This document shows, piece by piece, positions 379-36,394 of a DNA stretch of 39,724 bases. Numbering within the stretch: the stretch's first letter is position 1; every line of letters begins with the position of its first letter. The position numbers and the translations under genes were made by a program. This DNA is from Shigella phage ESh7. The stretch lies in sequence record ON528720. One strand, 5' to 3'. The notes under the pieces are model-generated. The model saw only the letters and a list, made by a program, of their open reading frames with translations. It was not told the origin of the DNA and searched no databases.

Positions 379-1410
379 ATGAGGAACAACCGTATGAACA
401 TCTTCAAGACCAACCCATTCAAAGCTGTGTCATTCGTAGAGTCTGCCGTGAAGAAAGCCCTTGACAATGCTGGTTATTTGATTTGCGATATCAAATATGA
501 TGGCGTGCGTGGTAACATTGTGGTTGACAACGTGGCTGAGGCCGCATGGCTGTCCCGTGTGTCCAAGTTCATCCCGGCGCTGGAACATCTGAACGGTTTC
601 GATAAGCGCTGGCAACAACTGATGAATGATGACCGCTGCATTTTCCCGGACGGCTTCATGCTGGATGGTGAACTGATGGTCAAAGGCGTAGACTTCAACA
701 CAGGGTCTGGCCTACTGAGAACAAAGTGGCTCAAGAAGAACAACTGCATGTTTGACCGTGGTGGTGTTGAGCCGCTGAAAGGTTCAAAAGTAGCCTTTGA
801 GTTAGACCCTAAGCGCCTGAGTGTGCGCCTGTATGCGGTCATGCCGATTCACATTGCGGAGTCTGGTGAGGACTACGATGTGCAGAACCTGCTGATGCCG
901 TATCATGTGGAAGCCATGCGCTCTCTTCTGGTTGAATACTTCCCGGAAATCGAGTGGCTTATCGCTGAGACCTACGAGGTCTACGATATGGATTCACTGA
1001 GTGAACTGTACGAGGCCAAGCGTGCAGAAGGCCACGAGGGTCTCATTGTGAAAGACCCACAAGGCATCTACAAGCGAGGCAAGAAGTCTGGCTGGTGGAA
1101 ATGCAAGCCTAATGACGAAGCCGATGGTATTATTCAGGGTGTCAATTGGGGTACGCCGGGTCTTGCAAACGAAGGTAAAGTTATCGGGTTCTCTGTGCTT
1201 CTTGAGACTGGTCGTCTGGTTGACGCCAACAACATCTCTCGCGCATTGATGGATGAGTTTACCGCGAATGTTAAAGAACATGGCGAGGATTACTACAACG
1301 GGTGGGCCTGCCAGATTGGATATATGGAGGAAACACCCGATGGCTCATTGCGACACCCCTCATTCACCTGCTTCCGAGGAACTGAGGACAATCCACAAGA
1401 GAAAGTATAA
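379..1410 (+). CDS. 1.3: ATP-dependent DNA ligase
   Basis: 343 aa; adenylation motif KYDGVRG (lysine in ICDIKYDGVRG); position after gene 1.2 as in T7/T3. Confidence 0.9.
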   Translation: MRNNRMNIFKTNPFKAVSFVESAVKKALDNAGYLICDIKYDGVRGNIVVDNVAEAAWLSRVSKFIPALEHLNGFDKRWQQLMNDDRCIFPDGFMLDGELMVKGVDFNTGSGLLRTKWLKKNNCMFDRGGVEPLKGSKVAFELDPKRLSVRLYAVMPIHIAESGEDYDVQNLLMPYHVEAMRSLLVEYFPEIEWLIAETYEVYDMDSLSELYEAKRAEGHEGLIVKDPQGIYKRGKKSGWWKCKPNDEADGIIQGVNWGTPGLANEGKVIGFSVLLETGRLVDANNISRALMDEFTANVKEHGEDYYNGWACQIGYMEETPDGSLRHPSFTCFRGTEDNPQEKV

Positions 1411-1813
1411 GTTAGACCGGGAGGCTCCTTCGGGAGTCGCTTCCGCCTCTGGTAAACCTTTAGGGTATAAGCGGAAAGATGGCTACTGGATTCTCTCTTA
1501 TGGTGGCAAACAAATGCTGGCACATCGTGTGGTCTGGATGTTGACCCACGGTGAAATCCCGTAAGGTATGGTCATTGACCACATCAACAGGAACCCTAGT
1601 GATAACCGTATCGAAAACCTTCGGTGTGTCACTCAAGCTGTTAACTTATCGAATGTTGACGTCCGGTCTCATTGTTTAAGTGGCGAGAAGTATATTGCCC
1701 TTGACAAGAGAACCGGACGTTTTGCCGTTCGCATCAGGCGCAAATCCCACGGAACCTATGGAACCCTTGAGGAAGCTATAGCCGTGCGAGATGCTGCCAT
1801 TAACCCTCACTAA
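1409..1813 (+). pseudogene. HNH homing-endonuclease-like gene interrupted by in-frame TAA (1562-1564), no in-frame start codon downstream of ligase
   Basis: Frame-2 translation ...GYKRKDGYWILSYGGKQMLAHRVVWMLTHGEIP*GMVIDHINRNPSDNRIENLRCV... then AP2-like tail GRFAVRIRRKSHGTYGTLEEAIAVRDAA; classic HNH motif split by stop. Confidence 0.6.
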
Positions 1814-1820
1814 CAGGAGA
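1797..1820 (+). promoter_or_regulatory. T3 RNA polymerase promoter (AACAGGAGA variant)
   Basis: CATTAACCCTCACTAACAGGAGA; overlaps the end of the HNH reading frame. Confidence 0.7.
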
Positions 1821-3003: not shown

Positions 3004-3702
3004 ATGGCTGGTTTCAAGAAGAAAATTTACACCTCTGGTCTTGGCACTGCTGAGCCTTATGCTTATCTGAGTAAGCCGGATTATGGCAACGAAGAGCGTG
3101 GCTTCGGCAACCCACGTGGTGTCTATAAGGTAGACCTGACTCTTTCCAATAAAGACCCGCGCTGTCAGGCGATGGTCGATGAAATCGTGAAGTGTCACGA
3201 AGAGGCTTATGCTGCTGCCGTGGAAGAGTTCGAAGCTAACCCGCCGCAGGTACAGCGTGGTAAGAAACCACTGAAACCTTACGAGGGCGACATGCCGTTC
3301 TTCGATAACGGTGACGGTACGACTACCTTCAAGTTCAAATGCTATGCGTCTTTCCAAGACAAGAAGACCAAAGAGACAAAACACATCAATCTGGTCGTGG
3401 TCGATAGCAAAGGTAAGAAGATTCAGGAAGTGCCAATTATCGGTGGCGGCTCCAAGCTGAAAGTGAAATACTCTCTGGTGCCTTACAAGTGGAACACCGC
3501 TGTGGGCGCAAGCGTCAAGCTGCAACTGGAATCCGTGATGCTGGTCGAACTGGCTACCTTCGGTGGTGGTAGTGAAGATGAGTGGGCCGATGAAGTCGAA
3601 GATGGTGGTTACACTGCGAGTGAATCCCGTCAGTCCCGCGATGAGCAGGAGTGGCAGGAAGACGAGCACGAAGAAACCCCGGATGATGACGAGGATTTTT
3701 AA
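3004..3702 (+). CDS. 2.5: single-stranded DNA-binding protein
   Basis: 232 aa, acidic C-terminal tail ending DDDEDF as in T7 gp2.5; synteny. Confidence 0.9.
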   Translation: MAGFKKKIYTSGLGTAEPYAYLSKPDYGNEERGFGNPRGVYKVDLTLSNKDPRCQAMVDEIVKCHEEAYAAAVEEFEANPPQVQRGKKPLKPYEGDMPFFDNGDGTTTFKFKCYASFQDKKTKETKHINLVVVDSKGKKIQEVPIIGGGSKLKVKYSLVPYKWNTAVGASVKLQLESVMLVELATFGGGSEDEWADEVEDGGYTASESRQSRDEQEWQEDEHEETPDDDEDF

Positions 3703-3705
3703 ACC

Positions 3706-4176
3706 ATGAACCTGCGGGAGAAACTGGAGGCTTACTCTAAGGTGTCTCCCTCTGGTTGCTGGGAGTGGCGGCGAGCCACTGCTGGGAATGGTTATTGTTT
3801 AATATCCATAGGTCGCCAGCGTCAAGCATATGCGCACAGGGTATCATACTTCGTCTTCAATGAGCCAATTTCCGAAGGTCTTGTCATTAGACATAAGTGT
3901 GATAACCCTTGCTGTGTTAACCCTGAGCACCTAGAAGTTGGGACTCAGGCAGACAACATGCGGGACTGTAAGAAGCGTGGTCGTTTATCCGCGCCACCAG
4001 TAGCGAGAGGTGTACACAATCACAAGACTAAGCTGACCGATGAACAGGTAGCCTACATTGTGAACTCCACCAAGAGTAGCCGCGAGTTAGCCAACGAGTT
4101 TGGAGTATCGCCGCAGGCTATAAACTGGAGGAAGAGACAATGGCAGGCTACGTCGCAAAAGGAATCCGAAAAGTAG
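3706..4176 (+). CDS. HNH endonuclease with C-terminal helix-turn-helix region (gene 2.8 position)
   Basis: GCWEW...NGYC...HRVSY...HKCDNPCCVNPEHLEVGTQADN HNH motif; C-terminal TDEQVAYIVNSTKSSRELANEFGVSPQAINWRKRQW resembles HTH. Confidence 0.75.
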   Translation: MNLREKLEAYSKVSPSGCWEWRRATAGNGYCLISIGRQRQAYAHRVSYFVFNEPISEGLVIRHKCDNPCCVNPEHLEVGTQADNMRDCKKRGRLSAPPVARGVHNHKTKLTDEQVAYIVNSTKSSRELANEFGVSPQAINWRKRQWQATSQKESEK

Positions 4177-4589
4177 GTTCCTTCCGTTCTGGACTTGAAG
4201 ATAAAGTCCACAAACAACTGGAGGCTCGTGGGGTAAAAGCTGAATATGAAATGTGGAAGATTCCATATGTTATACCAGCCAGTAATCACACGTACCGACC
4301 AGATTTTATTTTACCCAATGGAATCATTGTCGAGACCAAGGGACTGTGGGAATCTGATGACCGGAAGAAGCACTTGCTAATCCGTGAGCAGTATCCTGAA
4401 CTGGACATTCGTCTGGTGTTCTCTTCGAGTCGTACCAAAATCTACAAAGGGTCTCCAACTTCTTACGCCGAGTTCTGCGAGAAGAAAGGGATTCTCTTTG
4501 CCGACAAACTGATACCCGTCGAATGGCTCAAGGAGCCTAAGCGGGACGTACCGTGGGAGAAACTAATTCGTGTAAAGGAGAAAAAGTAA
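4140..4589 (+). CDS. 3: endonuclease I (Holliday junction resolvase)
   Basis: 149 aa, MAGYVAKGIRKVGSFRSGLEDKV... near-identical in pattern to T7 gp3 as I recall it. Confidence 0.9.
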   Translation: MAGYVAKGIRKVGSFRSGLEDKVHKQLEARGVKAEYEMWKIPYVIPASNHTYRPDFILPNGIIVETKGLWESDDRKKHLLIREQYPELDIRLVFSSSRTKIYKGSPTSYAEFCEKKGILFADKLIPVEWLKEPKRDVPWEKLIRVKEKK

Positions 4590-7597: not shown

Positions 7598-9712
7598 ATG
7601 CTCGTAAGTGACATTGAGGCCAACAACCTCTTAGAGAAAGTCACCAAGTTTCACTGTGGCGTTATCTATGACTACCGTGATGGTGAGTACCATAGCTATC
7701 GTCCGGGCGACTTCGGGGCGTATCTGGATGCGCTGGAAGCCGAGGTGAAGCGAGGTGGGCTTATTGTTTTCCATAACGGTCACAAGTATGACGTTCCGGC
7801 TTTAGAGAAACTCGCAAAGCTGCAACTCAATCGTGACTTCAAGTTACCCCGTGAGAATTGTATTGACACATTGGTACTCTCGCGTTTACTTCATGCGAAC
7901 CTTAAAGACACAGACATGGGGCTTCTTCGTTCCGGGAAACTACCCGGTCGTCGCTTCGGGTCTCACGCTCTGGAGGCATGGGGTTATCGCTTGGGCGAGA
8001 TGAAGGGCGAATACAAGGACGACTTCAAGGCTATGCTGGAAGAGCAGGGCGAAGAATATGTTGATGGTGCTGAGTGGGTTTCATTCAACGAGCCGATGAT
8101 GGCGTATAACGTTCAAGACGTTGTGGTCACTGTCAAGCTCTTCGAGAAATTACTGAGTGACCTCCACTACTTCCCTGCTGGTATGGACTTCACGAAGTAC
8201 GATGCGGATTTATTCTGGCGTGAAGCTGGTGAGTCTGTGGATATTGAACATCGTGCAGCATGGCTTTTAGCGAAGCAGGAGCGTAATGGCTTCCCATTCA
8301 ACACCAAGGCAATTGAGGAACTTTATGTAGAACTTGCAGCGAAACGCGCCGAACTTCTTAGAAAGCTAACCGAAACGTTTGGCTCGTGGTATCAACCGAA
8401 AGGTGGTAAGGAACTCTTCAAGCACCCACGGACAGGCAAGCCGCTGCCGAGTTATCCTCGCGTGGTCTATCCGAAACATGGTGGCGTGTACAAGAAGCCT
8501 CGTAATAAGGCACAGCGCGAAGGTCTTGAACCTTGCGACTTGGACACGAGGGATTACATGGAGGGTGCTCCGTATACTCCGGTAGAGTTCGTTACGTTCA
8601 ATCCAAGTAGCCGTGACCACATTCAGAAGAAACTACAGGAGGCCGGATGGGTTCCTGAGAAGTTCACCGAGAAGGGTGCGCCTGTGGTGGACGATGAGGT
8701 CTTGGAGCATGTACGAGTGGATGACCCTGAGAAGCAGGCGTGCATTGACTTGATTAAAGAGTACCTGATGATACAGAAGCGTATCGGTCAGGCGGCAGAA
8801 GGTGACAAAGCGTGGTTACGTTATGTTCAAGATGATGGTAAGATTCATGGAGCCGTTAACCCTAACGGTGCAGTTACTGGTCGTGCTACTCATAGTTTCC
8901 CAAACCTTGCACAAGTACCCGGCGTTCGTTCTCCTTACGGGGAGCAGTGTCGTAGCGCTTTTGGTGCTGAACATCATTTGGATGGGATTACTGGCAAGCC
9001 GTGGGTTCAAGCGGGGATAGACGCCAGTGGCTTAGAGTTGCGCTGTCTGGCACACTTCATGGCTCGCTTCGACAACGGAGAGTATGCGAATGAGATTCTC
9101 AACGGTGACATTCACACCAAGAACCAGAACGCTGCGGAACTCCCAACGCGAGACAACGCCAAGACCTTCATTTACGGGTTCCTTTACGGAGCCGGAGATG
9201 AGAAGATTGGTCAGATTGTTGGGGCAGGGAAGGAGCGCGGGAAGGAACTCAAGAAGAAATTCTTAGAGAACACCCCGGCGATTGCAGCGCTACGAGAAGC
9301 TATCCAACAGTCTCTCGTTAAGTCTTCCGCTTGGATTGGTGGTGAGCAGAAAGTCCAGTGGAAGCGCCGTTGGATTAAAGGTCTGGATGGTCGCAAGGTT
9401 CACGTCAGGTCTCCACACGCAGCGCTCAACACATTGTTGCAGTCTGCTGGTGCTCTGATTTGTAAGCTGTGGATTATCAAGACCGAAGAGATGCTCATTG
9501 AGAAAGGCTTGAAGCACGGCTGGGATGGTGACTTTGCGTACATGGCTTGGGTTCATGATGAAGTCCAGATTGCGTGTCGCACCGAAGAGGTAGCCAAGGT
9601 CGTCGTAGAGGTAGCTCAAGAGGCTATGCGATGGGTTGGTGAACATTGGAACTTCCGTTGCCGCTTAGACACAGAGGGTAAGATTGGCCCGAACTGGGCG
9701 GTTTGTCACTAA
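7598..9712 (+). CDS. 5: DNA polymerase
   Basis: 704 aa (same as T7 gp5); exonuclease and polymerase motifs; FHNGHKYDVP, YGFLYGAG. Confidence 0.95.
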   Translation: MLVSDIEANNLLEKVTKFHCGVIYDYRDGEYHSYRPGDFGAYLDALEAEVKRGGLIVFHNGHKYDVPALEKLAKLQLNRDFKLPRENCIDTLVLSRLLHANLKDTDMGLLRSGKLPGRRFGSHALEAWGYRLGEMKGEYKDDFKAMLEEQGEEYVDGAEWVSFNEPMMAYNVQDVVVTVKLFEKLLSDLHYFPAGMDFTKYDADLFWREAGESVDIEHRAAWLLAKQERNGFPFNTKAIEELYVELAAKRAELLRKLTETFGSWYQPKGGKELFKHPRTGKPLPSYPRVVYPKHGGVYKKPRNKAQREGLEPCDLDTRDYMEGAPYTPVEFVTFNPSSRDHIQKKLQEAGWVPEKFTEKGAPVVDDEVLEHVRVDDPEKQACIDLIKEYLMIQKRIGQAAEGDKAWLRYVQDDGKIHGAVNPNGAVTGRATHSFPNLAQVPGVRSPYGEQCRSAFGAEHHLDGITGKPWVQAGIDASGLELRCLAHFMARFDNGEYANEILNGDIHTKNQNAAELPTRDNAKTFIYGFLYGAGDEKIGQIVGAGKERGKELKKKFLENTPAIAALREAIQQSLVKSSAWIGGEQKVQWKRRWIKGLDGRKVHVRSPHAALNTLLQSAGALICKLWIIKTEEMLIEKGLKHGWDGDFAYMAWVHDEVQIACRTEEVAKVVVEVAQEAMRWVGEHWNFRCRLDTEGKIGPNWAVCH

Positions 9713-9730
9713 GGAGGACTTATTGGAGGC

Positions 9731-10054
9731 GTGGCTACACTAAGGTTCCACAAGATGCCGACCGGGTGTGTAGTCTGCGTTTCACATAAGCGCAATCACG
9801 ATGGCTACTTCCGGTACAGTATAGTGTCGTCCAGAAAGGGCGAGAAGAAATGCTTTATGTTTCACCGCTGGGTTTGGGAACGACACCGTGGGCCTATACC
9901 AGAAGGGTATGAGATAGACCACTTGTGTCTGAACCGTGGGTGCTGCAACGTAGAACACCTGCAGTGCATCCCGAAGCGTGAGCACATAATCAAAACCAAC
10001 AAAGAGCACAAGCTCGTAAAGGAGAAACATTATGGCAATGACCAAACACTTTAA
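9731..10054 (+). CDS. 5.3: HNH endonuclease (gene 5.3 position)
   Basis: HRWVWERHRGPIPEGYEIDHLCLNRGCCNVEHLQCIPKREH; start codon uncertain (GTG 9731 or ATG 9755). Confidence 0.7.
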   Translation: MATLRFHKMPTGCVVCVSHKRNHDGYFRYSIVSSRKGEKKCFMFHRWVWERHRGPIPEGYEIDHLCLNRGCCNVEHLQCIPKREHIIKTNKEHKLVKEKHYGNDQTL

Positions 10055-10722: not shown

Positions 10723-11630
10723 GTTTGATTACCCTCAAAGACTTCGCTGAGATGCGCGAAGGAAAACCGATGGAGAATGGCGTGCTGGTCATGGATGGTG
10801 ACTGGCTTGTGTATCAGTCGATGGCTGCTGCCGAAGTTGAGACGGATTGGGGAGACGACATTTGGACTCTGGAGTGTGACCACGCTAAGGCTCGTAGCAT
10901 TCTTGATTCTGCAATCGAATCATACCGAACCCGCAAGAAGGCGTGGAGAGACGCTATGGTAGTTCTGGCGTTTACCGATGATGTTAACTGGCGTAAGGTG
11001 CTGGTCGATGAGACCTATAAGGAGAACCGCAGGGCGACCCGTAAGCCTGTGGGATACCGTGACTTCCTGTCGAAGCTGTGGGAGCGCGATGAGTTCATTC
11101 ACATCAAAGAGGACATGCTGGAAGGTGATGACGTTATGGGCATCATTGGGTCTGGTCACGAGGTCTTCGGCTTCAAGAAGGCTGTGTTGGTCTCCTGCGA
11201 CAAGGACTTCAAGACTATCCCGGACGTTGACTTCCTGTGGTGTACCACTGGTAACATCTTGACGCAGACCAAAGAGACCGCTGATTGGTGGCATCTCTTC
11301 CAGACCATCAAGGGTGATATGACTGATGGCTACTCCGGGATTCCCGGCTGGGGCGATACGGCAGAAGGTTTCCTGAATGACCCGTTCATTGTGGAGCCTG
11401 TAGAGTCCGTGTTGAAGTCTGGTAAGAACAAGGGGCAGATAGTAACCAAGTGGGTGAAGCGTGCTCCTGATGCGACTGAGACGCTGTGGGACTGCATTAA
11501 ATCCATTGGTGCCAAAGCTGGGATGACCGAGCAGGAAATAATCAAGCAAGGCCAGATGGCTCGCATTCTTCGCTTCGAGGAATACAATTACATTGACAAG
11601 GAGATTTACTTATGGACGCCGCGAAGCTGA
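10719..11630 (+). CDS. 6: 5'-3' exonuclease
   Basis: 303 aa; position and size as T7 gp6 (300 aa). Confidence 0.9.
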
Positions 11631-27685: not shown

Positions 27686-29635
27686 ATGGCTACAAATATT
27701 AAGACCGTGATGACTTACCCGCTGGATGGTTCAACTACGGACTTTAATATTCCGTTCGAGTATCTGGCTCGTAAGTTCGTCCGAGTGACCCTTATCGGTG
27801 TTGACCGAAAGGAACTCATCTTGAATAAAGACTATCGTTTTGCTACTAAGACCACAATCTCCACAACGAGAGCATTGGGGCCAGCGGACGGTTATAACAT
27901 GATTGAAATCCGTCGATTCACCTCCGCTACAGATAGGCTGGTTGACTTCACCGATGGTTCAATCCTTCGGGCATATGATTTGAACATATCTCAGGTTCAG
28001 ACCCTTCACGTTGCTGAGGAAGCCCGCGACCTTACCGCAGATACAATTGGCGTCAACAATGGTGGGAACTTGGATGCTCGTGGTCGTCGTATCGTGAACG
28101 TTGCGGATGCACAAGATGTAGGTGACGCAATCAACCTAGGTCAAATCCAACGATGGAACGACTCTGCGTTGAACTCTGCTAATCGAGCGAAACAGGAAGC
28201 TGACCGTGCAACTGCGCGTGCAAACGATGCGAACAACTCTGCGAACGCCTCAGCGTCCTCCGCTAGTGCCTCTTCTGTCTCCGCCGAATTAGCAAAACAG
28301 TGGGCCGTTAAGGAAACCGCTGTGGAGCCTAATCTCGAGTCATCACGAACCTACGCGCTTCACTCCATGTCATACCGGAATGAGGCTAAAGGCTCTGCCG
28401 ACCGTGCCGCTGTTTCAGAGACCAACGCTAAGGCCTCCGAAGGGAGCGCTACTAACTCGGCTGCTGCCGCTAAGGTCTCAGAGACCAACGCTAAGGCCTC
28501 CGAGGAGAGAGCAATCACTGAGGCGAGTAAGCTTGGAAGCATGAATGGGTTTGCTGGTGCAATCGACAGGGTTGAAGGTGTAAACGTGTGGTTCAAAGGG
28601 ACACTCGTGACTACCGAGAACATCACTGGAGGTTGGCTTATTTCCACAGGCCACGCTAATATTGGTAAAGGGCTTGCGGTTCAGGAGAATGGTACTTTCG
28701 GTATCGACTTAACAGTCCAGCGCGACATTTATGGAAATCGTAACATGACAGTCGCTGGTAACTCTTGGTTGCAGGGAGGCATTGTCCAGTCGGCAGCCTC
28801 CACCGTGTATAACCAGCTATATCGCCTTCACCTGAGCAGTACACCAATGCATGTAGGGAACCGTCAGGGTGTCCACATTGGATGGAACGAGTCTAACGGT
28901 AAAGGTGAAGCTGTCTTTTTGAATAACCAAGGCCGTGGTGATGGTGGGTTCGTGTTCCGTACAGTTAACGTCGCCAACTCAGTTGAGAAGGGTCGTGTCG
29001 AGTTTACTCAGGACGGTAACATCTATGCGAATCACCTACAGGTTCGTTCCGGTGCCAGAATTGATGGGAACAACAACATCGTAGGTCAGTACCTCCACGC
29101 AGGAATGGGCAACGCGATACTAAACCCGGATGGGAACCTTAGCGGCGGTGTGTGGAACAGCGTTGGTGGACACCTTTGGGGAATGCTCAACGACAACTAC
29201 AGGTTCGCCAAACCTCCTGCTGGGGTTCGCCTGTACACAGGCCGTGGCTCGGACTACATTGAGGGTAACGTTGATGGTAAGGCCGTTGGGTTCCGATGGT
29301 TCCTGTCAGACAGAAGGCTTAAAGAGAACATCAAGGTTGTTCGCTCTGCCGATGATATGCTCAATATTATCCGCTCGTATATTCCGGTTTCGTATAAATA
29401 TAAGGACTCTGAGTACGTTGACAACCGTGGGAATACTGTGACTGTCGCTGGTAAGAACTCTCGTGCTGGTTTCATTACTCAGGACTTGATTCGAATCTGG
29501 CCGGAGGCGGTTGATATAATGAGCGACGGTATGCAGTCTCCAGACCCGAACCAGATCATTGGCGGATTGATGCTACTTGTTAAGAACCTAGATGCTCGCG
29601 TTCAGGAGCTTGAATCTAAACTTATGACAGACTAA
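27686..29635 (+). CDS. 17: tail fibre protein with C-terminal intramolecular chaperone (peptidase S74-like) domain
   Basis: 649 aa from ATG 27686 (RBS AAAGGAGGT); N-terminus MATNIKTVMTYPLDGSTTDFNIPFEYLARKFV... like T7 gp17; C-terminus SDRRLKENI...VSYKYK...GFITQDL...PEAV...LVKNLDARVQELESKL. Confidence 0.9.
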   Translation: MATNIKTVMTYPLDGSTTDFNIPFEYLARKFVRVTLIGVDRKELILNKDYRFATKTTISTTRALGPADGYNMIEIRRFTSATDRLVDFTDGSILRAYDLNISQVQTLHVAEEARDLTADTIGVNNGGNLDARGRRIVNVADAQDVGDAINLGQIQRWNDSALNSANRAKQEADRATARANDANNSANASASSASASSVSAELAKQWAVKETAVEPNLESSRTYALHSMSYRNEAKGSADRAAVSETNAKASEGSATNSAAAAKVSETNAKASEERAITEASKLGSMNGFAGAIDRVEGVNVWFKGTLVTTENITGGWLISTGHANIGKGLAVQENGTFGIDLTVQRDIYGNRNMTVAGNSWLQGGIVQSAASTVYNQLYRLHLSSTPMHVGNRQGVHIGWNESNGKGEAVFLNNQGRGDGGFVFRTVNVANSVEKGRVEFTQDGNIYANHLQVRSGARIDGNNNIVGQYLHAGMGNAILNPDGNLSGGVWNSVGGHLWGMLNDNYRFAKPPAGVRLYTGRGSDYIEGNVDGKAVGFRWFLSDRRLKENIKVVRSADDMLNIIRSYIPVSYKYKDSEYVDNRGNTVTVAGKNSRAGFITQDLIRIWPEAVDIMSDGMQSPDPNQIIGGLMLLVKNLDARVQELESKLMTD

Positions 29636-35257: not shown

Positions 35258-36394
35258 ATGACTTTCACCGAAGCACAAGCCGCACTCGAAGCTATCCGCA
35301 ACCTACCGATTGAGCTCCTGAACGAACGCCAGTCCATGCTGGTGGCTCTTGCGGCTGCTATCGTGAACGATGAGACTCAAGACGGCGAACTGACGCAGGC
35401 CAATGTCAATTGGGGTCTGGAGTATATGGGCTACTGGCAGACACTGGCGGAGCGTATGCGTGATGTTGGATTTGTACGCTTGGGTAACGGTCACTTTAGC
35501 GCAGCATATGAGCACGCATTGTTACCGGGCAAGGTTATCAAGGTAGGCTTTAAGAAAGAGGATTCAGGCGCTGCCTATGCCGCATTCTGCCGTATGAATC
35601 AGGGTCGTGAGGGTATCCCTACGGTGTACGACATTCAGCGTCATACAGGCTGCTACACGGTGGTCTTGGACTATCTGACACCGCTTAACGATGGGTGCTA
35701 CGGTGAAAGTGATAAGATTCGCCACCACTTTCAGGCCGCACGGGAAATCATTGAGGAGGGTTGCTTCGACACCGCCGAAGAGTACCCGATAAGCGAGGGC
35801 TTTATTGAGACCTGCAAGGATATCCGCAAGTTCTTCTTAGGCATCGCATCGTTCGATTGTCACAGCGGTAACATGATGAAAGACCAAATGGGACGCTTGA
35901 TTATCACAGACCCGGTGTCATTCAGCGCAGCCAACAAGTTAAAGCCGGGTGAGTTCCACTGTGACCCTGATGAGCTCATCGCTGAGATTGAGGCGCTGAG
36001 GGCGCAGGAAGCGATTGACCGCTGTAAGGCACGCAAGGCACGCCGTGACCCTAAAGGAACCTTTCAGGTAGCGCGTAAAGCACGCATCAAGTGGCGCAGA
36101 AAGGCCTCTAAGCGTAGGAAGCGCAACGCTAAGGTACGCGCTAAGATGCGCAACGCTAAGGTACGCGCTAAGATGCGCATGGATGCCAACGAGCAGCGCA
36201 GGGCCGAGCCTAGGGCGCGTATGATGTGGGGTGATACGCACTGGCGCAACGTTTGGATGCAGAATATGATTGTTGACTTCGAACGGCTCGAACTGTTAGC
36301 AGCCGCACAGATGGCACAGATAGACCACAAGGCTATCGCATGGAACTCTCCGCTGTGTGTCGATAAGTACCTTGACAGGAGACTGCAAGGCTGA
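35258..36394 (+). CDS. 0.7: serine/threonine protein kinase / host transcription shut-off protein
   Basis: 378 aa; GNGHFSAAYEHALLPGKVIKVGFKKEDSGAAYAAFCRM...GCYTVVLD...CKDIRKFFLGIASFDCHSGNMM tracks T7 gp0.7 closely as I recall it. Confidence 0.85.
   Translation: MTFTEAQAALEAIRNLPIELLNERQSMLVALAAAIVNDETQDGELTQANVNWGLEYMGYWQTLAERMRDVGFVRLGNGHFSAAYEHALLPGKVIKVGFKKEDSGAAYAAFCRMNQGREGIPTVYDIQRHTGCYTVVLDYLTPLNDGCYGESDKIRHHFQAAREIIEEGCFDTAEEYPISEGFIETCKDIRKFFLGIASFDCHSGNMMKDQMGRLIITDPVSFSAANKLKPGEFHCDPDELIAEIEALRAQEAIDRCKARKARRDPKGTFQVARKARIKWRRKASKRRKRNAKVRAKMRNAKVRAKMRMDANEQRRAEPRARMMWGDTHWRNVWMQNMIVDFERLELLAAAQMAQIDHKAIAWNSPLCVDKYLDRRLQG
36121..36174 (+). repeat. perfect in-frame 27-bp tandem duplication inside gene 0.7
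   Basis: GCGCAACGCTAAGGTACGCGCTAAGAT x2 (36121-36147, 36148-36174), encoding RNAKVRAKM twice. Confidence 0.9.

What the first reader, a model, noticed from the sequence alone, without database searches (positions are those of the whole stretch)
1409..1813. HNH homing-endonuclease-like insert between ligase and gene 1.6, interrupted by an in-frame TAA and lacking a start codon
Between the ligase stop (1408-1410) and the next T3 promoter (1797-1820) a single reading frame encodes an HNH endonuclease: ...GYKRKDGYWILSYGGKQMLAHRVVWMLTHGEIP-TAA-GMVIDHINRNPSDNRIENLRCVTQAVN..., followed by an AP2-like DNA-binding tail. The TAA at 1562-1564 sits where homologs usually have Glu (IPEG...DH), consistent with a single-base nonsense change. 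There is no ATG/GTG/TTG in this frame between the ligase stop and the TAA; the only in-frame Met codons lie deep inside the ligase gene. The frame ends inside the promoter. Taken together this looks like a decaying selfish endonuclease gene, or a gene expressed unconventionally (stop-codon readthrough, or two separately translated halves with the catalytic half starting at ATG 1568).
Basis: seen in the sequence. Interest (0 to 1): 0.5.

Follow-up and report, generated by a model that had tools for sequence, protein, structure and literature searches.

The report
Nonsense-mutated phage homing endonuclease gene 1.45
This is the already-annotated HNH homing-endonuclease gene 1.45 of phiYeO3-12-type (T3-group) phages, which has a normal start codon inside the end of the ligase gene but in this genome carries a single G-to-T change that turns Glu-75 into a stop, so it is an ordinary, recently broken selfish gene (or a one-base sequencing error).

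Summary
The window is a circularly permuted Teetrevirus genome, about 95-96% identical to Klebsiella phage Patroon and Yersinia phage phiYeO3-12. Region 1340-1813 is the ortholog of phiYeO3-12 gene 1.45, a 157-aa HNH endonuclease, at 98.7% amino-acid identity.

Confirmed:
- An HNH_3 reading frame is present.
- TAA at 1562-1564 replaces GAA (Glu75), a single G->T change.
- The frame ends at the TAA inside the phi1.5 promoter.

Refuted:
- "No start codon" is wrong.
  - In-frame ATG 1514, GTG 1529, ATG 1538 and TTG 1541 lie between the ligase stop and the TAA.
  - The real start is most likely ATG 1340, 23 codons before the ligase stop in the +1 frame, 9 nt after GGAGG.
  - That ATG is present in all 19 HNH-carrying loci checked, but in only 6 of 22 HNH-less ligase loci.
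  - Codons 42-58, upstream of ATG 1514, are under strong purifying selection.
- Nothing supports programmed readthrough or a split gene. About 24 homologs from at least 5 genera all have a sense codon here.

The stop falls in the loop just before the catalytic beta-beta-alpha-metal motif, separating the N-terminal DNA-binding part from the D80/H81/N93/N102 core and the AP2-like tail. All other genes in the window are intact.

Verdict: a private null allele of a known mobile gene. Low interest.

The parts
1326..1330 (+). GGAGG Shine-Dalgarno-like sequence, 9 nt upstream of ATG 1340. It is formed by ligase codons ATG-GAG-GAA.
   Evidence: Read. It is annotated as the ribosome-binding site of the HNH gene in phage LL2. 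ATGGAGG is conserved in every HNH-carrying locus.
1340..1564 (+). 5' part of gene 1.45: codons 1-74 plus the premature TAA.
- Leader encoded in the +1 frame of the last 23 ligase codons.
- Conserved hairpin region.
- N-terminal beta-sheet and helix 61-70 (AHRVVWMLTH).
   Evidence: The annotated start in phiYeO3-12 NP_052076.1 maps here. tblastn places gp1.45 residues 1-157 at 1340-1810 with 98.7% identity and one stop. The Met is conserved in 18 of 18 GenBank homologs. Codons 42-58 have pN 0.16 against pS 0.86.
1421..1440 (+). Hairpin GGCTCC-TTCG-GGAGTC with a UUCG loop, lying inside the ORF and encoding A-P-S-G-V. phiYeO3-12 annotates it as the putative early terminator TE.
   Evidence: Annotated at phiYeO3-12 7986-8001. 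The stem is identical in 17 of 18 homologs (the loop differs by one base in two of them). Synonymous divergence is reduced in this segment (pS 0.42 against 0.74-0.86 downstream). There is no T-run, and the simple terminator scan finds nothing.
1562..1564 (+). Premature ochre codon TAA, i.e. E75* (GAA->TAA, G->T at 1562).
   Evidence: Alignment with phiYeO3-12 and LL2. The homologs have Glu, Asp or Ala at this position and none has a stop.
1568..1813 (+). 3' part of gene 1.45: an 81-codon ORF starting at Met77.
- Beta-beta-alpha-metal core: D80, H81, N93, N102.
- AP2-like beta3-alpha tail.
- The stop codon lies inside the promoter.
   Evidence: ORF list. Pfam HNH_3 at 42 bits over profile positions 19-44. 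Invariant D80, H81, N93, L94 and R95 in a 71-sequence alignment. Structure model of an 89%-identical homolog.
1799..1820 (+). Phage RNA-polymerase promoter phi1.5 (ATTAACCCTCACTAACAGGAGA). Its CACTAA supplies the last sense codon and the stop codon of gene 1.45.
   Evidence: Consensus search. phiYeO3-12 and T3 annotations. In T7-type phages the ORF also ends in the promoter's CACTAA.
1070..1410 (+). Ligase 3' tract that travels with the endonuclease gene (a co-conversion-like haplotype).
   Evidence: This tract is 67-78% identical to HNH-less T3-type phages that are mostly 96-100% identical to the window over 574-1060. It is 96-100% identical to HNH-carrying phiYeO3-12. Identity to the HNH-carrying T7-type phage CQ615 rises to 96% at 1365-1409.

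Best explanation
Region 1340-1813 is gene 1.45 of the phiYeO3-12 lineage. It is a free-standing homing-endonuclease gene of the I-HmuI-like HNH_3 type with an AP2-like C-terminal DNA-binding domain, sitting between the ligase gene and promoter phi1.5.

In intact relatives the gene is read as follows:
- Translation starts at an ATG in the +1 frame of the ligase gene, 23 codons before the ligase stop, using the GGAGG formed by ligase codons.
- It runs through a conserved UUCG hairpin (the putative early terminator).
- It ends at the TAA inside the promoter.

In this genome a single G->T transversion at 1562 converts Glu75 (GAA) into TAA.
- Translation from ATG 1340 therefore stops after 74 residues, in the loop just before the first strand of the beta-beta-alpha-metal motif.
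- The product has the N-terminal DNA-contacting sheet and a helix but none of the catalytic residues. The endonuclease is dead.
- No other damage has accumulated, so the inactivation is recent.

Shown here: gene identity, the start-codon evidence, the uniqueness of the stop, and its position in the fold.
Inferred: that the enzyme is inactive, and that the change is a real mutation rather than a base-call error.
For: Identity and synteny:
- 98.6% DNA identity to phiYeO3-12 over 1200-2000, where the record annotates '1.45: HNH endonuclease'.
- tblastn of gp1.45 covers residues 1-157 at 98.7% identity with exactly one stop.

Family:
- Pfam HNH_3 at E 1.4e-21.
- PHROG 99 'HNH endonuclease' at E 6.8e-45.
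- I-HmuI (PDB 1u3e) matches by sequence at E 8.5e-6.
- I-HmuI also matches by fold at E 1.3e-4, probability 1.00, on a model with pLDDT 87.8.
- 36 of 71 homologs carry Pfam AP2.

Stop is private:
- 18 GenBank homologs and 6 distinct metagenomic loci all keep a sense codon here (Glu, Asp or Ala) and an open frame through the HNH and AP2-like domains.

Start codon:
- The +1-frame ATG is present in 19 of 19 HNH-carrying loci against 6 of 22 HNH-less loci. Fisher p = 7e-7, not corrected for phylogeny.
- Bas102 and Yep_15 have an in-frame stop 2-3 codons upstream of that Met.
- Codons 42-58 have pN 0.16 against pS 0.86, so sequence upstream of ATG 1514 is translated.
- The Met at 1514 is not conserved outside the phiYeO3-12 group.

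Mobility signature:
- T3 and many relatives lack the insert at the same site.
- There is a HEG-linked ligase 3' haplotype.

Assembly quality:
- All other phiYeO3-12 genes have collinear, stop-free orthologs in the window.
Against: - No read-level data are available, so a single-base consensus error cannot be excluded.
- Enzyme activity was never tested here, for this protein or for any close homolog.
- No paper characterising gp1.45 could be retrieved.
- The ATG/HNH association is confounded by the co-transferred ligase tract, so it is not phylogenetically independent evidence.
- A short C-terminal product from ATG 1568 might still be made by reinitiation.
Confidence: 0.72

Rival explanations
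1. The TAA is a base-calling or assembly error, and the phage actually carries an intact GAA codon and a functional gene 1.45.
For: - It is a single substitution that no other public sequence shares. No hit for either allele's 33-mer was found in IMG/VR, JGI metagenomes or GTDB genomes.
- Neither half-ORF is on record as a called gene.
- The rest of the gene is nearly identical to intact copies.
Against: - The assembly otherwise looks clean. All other phiYeO3-12 orthologs are collinear, without stops or frameshifts.
- Consensus substitution errors are rare compared with homopolymer indels, and the context CCCG[G/T]AAGG is not a homopolymer (general knowledge, not tested).
Confidence: 0.2
2. 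The gene is expressed as two polypeptides: residues 1-74 from ATG 1340, and residues 77-157 by termination-reinitiation at UAA-GGU-AUG (1562-1570). Either the halves reassemble, or the C-terminal half alone acts as a nicking enzyme.
For: - ATG 1568 lies 3 nt after the stop, a geometry that allows reinitiation in bacteria (established for lacI and T4 rIIB restarts; general knowledge).
- The 81-aa ORF keeps D80, H81, N93 and N102 and the AP2-like domain.
Against: - There is no usable Shine-Dalgarno sequence. AAGG is only 1 nt from the ATG and GGTGA is 14 nt away (read).
- The C-fragment lacks the nearly invariant H62, R63, G71 and P74 and the helix 61-70 that precedes the beta-beta-alpha-metal motif.
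- No homolog is split at this point.
- Met77 is Leu in KP32, KMI1 and Ebrios, so it is not a conserved internal start.
Confidence: 0.05
3. Programmed stop-codon readthrough or host suppression restores a full-length protein.
For: None beyond the presence of an in-frame stop within an otherwise intact gene.
Against: - The stop is absent from all homologs, so it is not a conserved recoding site.
- No Rfam family matches anywhere in the window.
- UAA is the least readily read-through stop codon in enterobacteria (general knowledge).
Confidence: 0.02

Closest known systems
phiYeO3-12 gene 1.45 (NP_052076.1, 'HNH endonuclease') and its orthologs in LL2, Patroon, VAC1, ViciousJeremy, GP-5, ZCEA1, VSG32 and mtp4
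   Same: - Same position between the ligase gene and promoter phi1.5.
- Same frame, same ATG inside the ligase 3' end, and same stop inside the promoter.
- 98.7% amino-acid identity.
   Different: - The window alone has TAA instead of GAA at codon 75.
- It also has V34A and one synonymous change.
I-HmuI, the HNH homing (nicking) endonuclease of Bacillus phage SPO1 (PDB 1u3e)
   Same: - The N-terminal sheet, helix and beta-beta-alpha-metal core align: residues 36-109 to I-HmuI 25-103, including EG-x-V-DH and N...N.
- It is the top fold hit: E 1.3e-4, 91 columns, 38% identity.
   Different: - gp1.45 lacks I-HmuI's first ~24 residues and its C-terminal helix-turn-helix domain. It has an AP2-like beta3-alpha tail instead.
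- It is free-standing rather than intron-encoded.
- Its activity is untested.
HNH-AP2 homing endonuclease family, including the ICP1 'IPA-HNH' genes and the frameshift-inactivated ICP1 gp115-gp116 (PMC10448857)
   Same: - N-terminal HNH plus C-terminal AP2 architecture.
- That paper describes an example of such a gene split into two ORFs by an inactivating mutation.
   Different: - Here the disruption is a nonsense codon rather than a frameshift.
- The AP2 match is below Pfam threshold in this sequence alone.
Free-standing homing endonuclease genes of T-even phages (seg and mob genes), and the gain-fixation-decay-loss cycle of homing genes
   Same: - Intergenic insertion.
- Presence or absence among close relatives.
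- A flanking co-conversion tract.
- Loss of function by point mutation (the cycle itself is general knowledge).
   Different: No cleavage site or homing cross has been demonstrated for gene 1.45.

Membership tests
Pfam HNH_3 (PF13392) / I-HmuI-like HNH endonucleases | Sequence match to the HNH_3 profile above the gathering score | tested here: met
   76.3 bits against a cut-off of 24.8 with codon 75 read as Glu. The C-terminal ORF alone scores 42 bits over profile positions 19-44.
Pfam HNH_3 (PF13392) / I-HmuI-like HNH endonucleases | Catalytic beta-beta-alpha-metal residues present (Asp-His, Asn, Asn) | tested here: met
   D80, H81 and N93 are invariant, and N102 and N105 nearly invariant, in 71 homologs. 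All are present in the window downstream of the stop.
Pfam HNH_3 (PF13392) / I-HmuI-like HNH endonucleases | One uninterrupted polypeptide containing both the N-terminal DNA-binding sheet/helix and the catalytic motif | tested here: not met
   TAA at 1562-1564 (codon 75) lies in the loop between helix 61-70 and strand 77-81.
Pfam HNH_3 (PF13392) / I-HmuI-like HNH endonucleases | Fold similarity to a solved member | tested here: met
   A model of the 89%-identical homolog P0001 (pLDDT 87.8) hits 1u3e at E 1.3e-4, probability 1.00. The window protein itself was not modelled.
Pfam HNH_3 (PF13392) / I-HmuI-like HNH endonucleases | Metal-dependent DNA nicking or cleavage activity | not testable with these tools
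   No biochemical data were found for gp1.45.
Free-standing homing endonuclease gene (mobile element) | Presence/absence polymorphism at the same site among closely related genomes | tested here: met
   T3, T7M, ESh9, Kpn-11mx and others join the ligase gene directly to TE and phi1.5. Homologs in five genera carry the insert at the same junction.
Free-standing homing endonuclease gene (mobile element) | Co-conversion of flanking sequence | tested here: met
   The ligase 3' ~340 nt form a haplotype linked to the insert across genera. The ligase C-terminus is FTCFRG...EKV in HNH-carrying loci against FEKFRG/FVMFRG...EKM in HNH-less loci.
Free-standing homing endonuclease gene (mobile element) | Cleavage of the insert-less allele and super-Mendelian inheritance in crosses | not testable with these tools
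   Needs wet-lab crosses.
HNH-AP2 homing endonucleases | C-terminal AP2 DNA-binding domain | tested here: inconclusive
   - The window scores 15.8 bits against a cut-off of 33.3, E 0.017.
- 36 of 71 homologs hit AP2 at E <= 0.01, best 8.3e-10.
- The model shows three strands and a helix at 119-153.
- Foldseek hits to AP2 structures are weak: 7wq5 at E 0.23 and 3igm at E 2.7.
Programmed recoding (readthrough) or naturally split gene | The in-frame stop is conserved among homologs | tested here: not met
   None of about 24 homologous loci has a stop at or near codon 75.

The most novel reading that the evidence does not exclude
Two novel readings remain open.

1. Split enzyme. The ochre codon makes a two-piece enzyme. 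Ribosomes terminating at UAA 1562 reinitiate at AUG 1568. The 74-aa N-fragment (DNA-contacting sheet plus helix) and the 81-aa C-fragment (beta-beta-alpha-metal core plus AP2-like domain) then associate non-covalently into an active or altered-specificity nuclease. The probability and interest scores given refer to this reading.

2. Cassette architecture, a family-level point that the data do show. This endonuclease cassette has neither a start nor a stop of its own: it starts in the +1 frame of the ligase gene, carries its own UUCG hairpin in place of the resident TE terminator, and stops in the promoter. What remains untested is whether this arrangement restricts full-length expression to phage-RNA-polymerase transcripts.
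Probability: 0.03. Interest if true: 0.4.

Novelty: already known. Interest (0 to 1): 0.1.

Why it matters
It matters little for biology at large. It documents one more step (point inactivation) in the well-known life cycle of a selfish homing gene, in a phage group where the gene has been annotated since the phiYeO3-12 genome.

Practical value:
- Annotators of this genome should label 1340-1813 as a gene 1.45 pseudogene (E75*), not as two small ORFs or a start-less gene.
- Public records disagree on the start of this gene. They use the equivalents of ATG 1253, 1340, 1514 and 1538. The comparative evidence here favours the ATG inside the ligase gene.
- The null allele would be a natural control for testing whether gp1.45 really drives homing into T3-type genomes.

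Tried and rejected
- Exact-pattern scans for the 33-mer around the stop, with the variable base as N, found nothing in IMG/VR, JGI metagenomes or GTDB genomes. No independent observation of either allele exists outside GenBank phages.
- Identity look-ups of the two half-ORFs found neither on record.
- The original phiYeO3-12 genome paper could not be retrieved by DOI or by a guessed PMC id. Full-text searches found no paper discussing gene 1.45.
- The Rfam scan of the whole window found no family.
- The simple terminator scan found no intrinsic terminator at the annotated TE hairpin, so the 'TE' label stays putative.
- The hairpin shows no compensatory changes. RNA-level and protein-level (APSGV) conservation therefore cannot be fully separated; only the reduced synonymous divergence points to an extra nucleotide-level constraint.
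- ATG 1514 was rejected as the true start, although Patroon, GP-5 and ZCEA1 annotate it. That Met is not conserved outside the close group, and the 17 codons upstream are under purifying selection.
- ATG 1253 (the VSG32-style annotation) was rejected. GP-5, Bas102 and Yep_15 have in-frame stops between it and ATG 1340.
- Short gene calls of 88-116 aa among metagenomic homologs were checked as possible truncated alleles. They are gene-caller start choices, and the upstream frame is open to the ligase ATG in all but one (L050).
Full report
**What the window is.** Megablast of 1-25000 gives 95-96% identity over about 95% of the query to Klebsiella phage Patroon, Yersinia phage phiYeO3-12 and other Teetrevirus (T3-group) genomes. 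No record is identical. Mapping all phiYeO3-12 proteins onto the window shows a complete, collinear genome that is circularly permuted. It begins in gene 1.2 and ends in gene 1.1.

**Checking the observation.**
- The ligase ORF ends at 1408-1410.
- The frame with codons starting at positions = 2 mod 3 reads ...KLDREAPSGVASASGKPLGYKRKDGYWILSYGGKQMLAHRVVWMLTHGEIP*GMVIDHINRNPSDNRIENLRCVTQAVN...AAINPH*.
- With the stop read as Glu, the frame matches Pfam HNH_3 at E 1.4e-21, 76.3 bits against a cut-off of 24.8. Pfam AP2 is only sub-threshold at E 0.017.
- TAA is at 1562-1564, the next ATG is at 1568, and the frame ends at 1811-1813.
- That end lies inside a T3-type promoter match at 1799-1820. The window has 12 such matches against 0 expected by chance.

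The claim that no ATG, GTG or TTG lies in frame between the ligase stop and the TAA is false.
- Reading the codons gives ATG 1514 (Met59), GTG 1529, ATG 1538 and TTG 1541.
- Three GenBank records (Patroon, GP-5, ZCEA1) annotate the gene from the ATG-1514 equivalent.
- The nearest upstream in-frame Met is not deep in the ligase gene. ATG 1340 is 23 codons before the ligase stop and 9 nt after GGAGG (1326-1330).
- That ATG is the start annotated in phiYeO3-12 (gene 1.45, NP_052076.1, 157 aa), LL2 (with that ribosome-binding site), VAC1 and ViciousJeremy.

**Which start is real.** I extracted the homologous frame from 18 GenBank phages in five genera: Teetrevirus, Teseptimavirus, Przondovirus, Kayfunavirus and Ningirsuvirus.
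- In every one the frame stays open across the ligase stop, back to a conserved Met equivalent to ATG 1340.
- Bas102 and Yep_15 have an in-frame stop 2-3 codons upstream of that Met, and GP-5 has one further upstream. This excludes starts such as ATG 1253.
- The Met at 1514 is confined to the phiYeO3-12 group. Other lineages read KHLLAHR, KQLLAHR, KHVLAHR and similar.
- Pairwise codon analysis over ten diverged sequences gives the pattern below.

| Codons | Region | Result |
|---|---|---|
| 2-23 | Overlap with ligase | Variation mainly at position 2 of this frame, which is ligase position 3; dN/dS 1.6. The leader is shaped by the ligase, not selected as protein. |
| 24-41 | Linker including hairpin | pS 0.42, pN 0.24 |
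| 42-58 | Upstream of ATG 1514 | pN 0.16 against saturated pS 0.86, so this stretch is translated |
| 59-103 | HNH_3 domain | pN 0.13, pS 0.74 |

- The ATG arises from ligase codons GAT-GGC (Asp-Gly of PDGSLRHP). All 19 HNH-carrying loci have GAT. Of 22 HNH-less ligase loci (T3 plus IMG/VR contigs), 16 have GAC and 6 have GAT. Fisher p = 7e-7, not phylogenetically corrected.
- Metagenomic homologs whose gene calls are short (88-97 aa) also have the frame open back to this ATG.
- One divergent lineage (P0017; loci L049 and L050) has its own ATG just before RKDGYW. This suggests the ligase-encoded leader is dispensable as protein.

I conclude that the gene has an ordinary start at ATG 1340, overlapping the ligase gene by 71 nt.

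**What the protein is.**
- PHROG 99 'HNH endonuclease' matches at E 6.8e-45.
- The only solved relative by sequence is I-HmuI (1u3e), at E 8.5e-6. Residues 36-109 align to I-HmuI 25-103, including ...HR.V......EG.V.DH......N...NLR.VTQ..N.
- A database search found 168 homologs. In a 71-sequence alignment D80, H81, N93, L94 and R95 are invariant. H62, R63, G71, P74, N102 and N105 are nearly invariant.
- An AlphaFold model of P0001, which is 89% identical with the same numbering, has mean pLDDT 87.8. Its elements are:
  - helix 10-22;
  - strands 23-25, 33-35, 50-54 and 57-60;
  - helix 61-70 and loop 71-76;
  - strand 77-81 (MVIDH), strand 94-98 and helix 99-104, which form the beta-beta-alpha-metal motif;
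  - three strands and a helix at 119-153.
- Foldseek against the PDB ranks I-HmuI first at E 1.3e-4, probability 1.00. AP2 structures appear only weakly: WRINKLED1 at E 0.23 and PfAP2 at E 2.7.
- 36 of the 71 homologs hit Pfam AP2 at E <= 0.01, best 8.3e-10.
- HNH plus C-terminal AP2 is a recognised homing-endonuclease architecture (PMC10448857).

The 'AP2-like tail' is therefore reasonable, though not proven for this sequence alone.

**What the stop does.** Codon 75 sits in the loop between helix 61-70 and the first catalytic strand.
- Translation from ATG 1340 gives a 74-residue product with no catalytic residue.
- The 81-codon ORF from ATG 1568 retains D80, H81, N93 and N102 and the tail. 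It lacks the nearly invariant H62, R63, G71 and P74 and the whole N-terminal sheet and helix.
- It has no properly spaced Shine-Dalgarno sequence. It could only be made by termination-reinitiation across UAA-GGU-AUG, which is possible in principle but unsupported.
- Met77 is Leu in KP32, KMI1 and Ebrios, so it is not a conserved internal start.

**Is the stop programmed?** No. All 18 GenBank homologs and six further metagenomic loci have Glu, Asp or Ala at codon 75, and none has a stop anywhere in the domain. Relative to phiYeO3-12, the window's copy differs in 1340-1813 only by the nonsense change, V34A (T->C at 1440) and one synonymous change (C at 1732). The lesion is therefore recent.

**Mobility context.**
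- T3, T7M, ESh9, Kpn-11mx and others lack the roughly 390-bp segment. They join the ligase stop to their own TE hairpin and phi1.5.
- HNH-carrying genomes have a different hairpin, GGCTCC-TTCG-GGAGTC, inside the ORF. Its stem is identical in 17 of 18 homologs, and synonymous divergence there is reduced.
- phiYeO3-12 annotates this hairpin as the putative TE terminator. It lacks a T-run, and the simple scan does not call it.
- The ORF ends in the promoter's CACTAA in both T3-type (…INPH*) and T7-type (…NTTH*) promoter contexts.
- The last ~340 nt of the ligase gene behave as a haplotype linked to the insert.
  - They are 67-78% identical to HNH-less T3-type phages, which are mostly 96-100% identical to the window over 574-1060.
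  - They are 96-100% identical to phiYeO3-12.
  - Identity to the T7-type HNH-carrying phage CQ615 rises to 96% next to the insert.
- This pattern is what co-conversion during homing would leave. The cleavage site and homing itself remain untested.

**Real mutation or error?** This cannot be decided without reads.
- In favour of a real change: every other gene is intact and collinear, and the sequence context is not a homopolymer.
- In favour of caution: the allele is seen nowhere else.
- My estimates are about 0.7 for a real null allele, 0.2 for an error, and the remainder for split or readthrough scenarios.

**Comparison with what is known, and verdict.** This is gene 1.45 of the phiYeO3-12 lineage, which is annotated in public records. 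It is an I-HmuI-like HNH_3 homing endonuclease with an AP2-like tail, carrying a private ochre mutation. Point-inactivated homing genes are expected from the homing cycle. A frameshift-split HNH-AP2 gene is described in ICP1 (PMC10448857). The 'no start codon' and 'unconventional expression' readings are not. Novelty: already known. Interest: low.

Noticed in passing
window 3706-4176 (+): An intact 156-aa HNH endonuclease ORF (PHROG 59 at E 9e-33, PHROG 1872 at E 1.5e-30) sits between gene 2.5 (3004-3702) and gene 3 (4140-4589). phiYeO3-12 has no gene there, so this is a second, apparently functional, free-standing homing-type gene in the genome.
   Followed up: partly
window 9722-10051 (+): Gene 5.3, the other HNH endonuclease of phiYeO3-12, is intact here (97.3% identity, no stop). 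Only gene 1.45 is broken.
   Followed up: partly
window 1421-1440; also L001-L018: The hairpin GGCTCC-UUCG-GGAGUC inside the 1.45 ORF has an identical stem in 17 of 18 homologs across genera (one-base loop differences in two). Synonymous divergence there is about half that of the rest of the gene. It replaces T3's own TE hairpin, lacks a U-run, and is not called by the terminator scan. Its function (terminator, RNA stability or processing, or homing-related) is unresolved.
   Followed up: partly
window 1070-1410 (ligase 3' end): The last ~340 nt of the ligase gene form a haplotype linked to the endonuclease insert across genera (ligase C-terminus FTCFRG...EKV against FEKFRG/FVMFRG...EKM). This is consistent with a co-conversion tract, and it removes +1-frame stops that HNH-less T7-type ligases carry.
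   Followed up: yes
L009 (Klebsiella phage VSG32, OR287811.1 6839-8043): The ligase gene is almost entirely deleted. The first ~29 ligase codons are fused in frame to the gene 1.45 leader, so the endonuclease there would be made as a ligase-N-terminus fusion. Another HNH gene lies immediately upstream.
   Followed up: no
L049 / L050 (Logan ERR12350138 and ERR12350059 contigs): A divergent homolog (59% identity) has its own ATG just before RKDGYW. L050 differs from L049 by a 1-nt indel that puts the ligase-encoded leader out of frame. This suggests the leader is dispensable in that lineage.
   Followed up: partly
GenBank records Patroon, GP-5, ZCEA1, CQ615, KKP 3708, Yep_15, PE3-1, VSG32, KP32, KMI1: Start-codon annotation of this gene is inconsistent between records, giving 77 to 186 aa for homologous ORFs. 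W2B and several Klebsiella phage records leave the gene unannotated.
   Followed up: yes
window 10756-10983 (+), inside gene 6: The phiYeO3-12 'putative 6.1 protein' ORF, embedded out of frame in gene 6, has an in-frame stop and only 74% identity here, while gene 6 itself is 98% identical. This argues that 6.1 is not a real gene.
   Followed up: no
window 27686-29614 (gene 17), 2176-2667 (gene 1.7), 4140-4589 (gene 3), 35258-36391 (gene 0.7): These genes are only 79-86% identical to phiYeO3-12, against 95-100% for most others. They are mosaic blocks, and the tail fibre among them implies a different host range.
   Followed up: no
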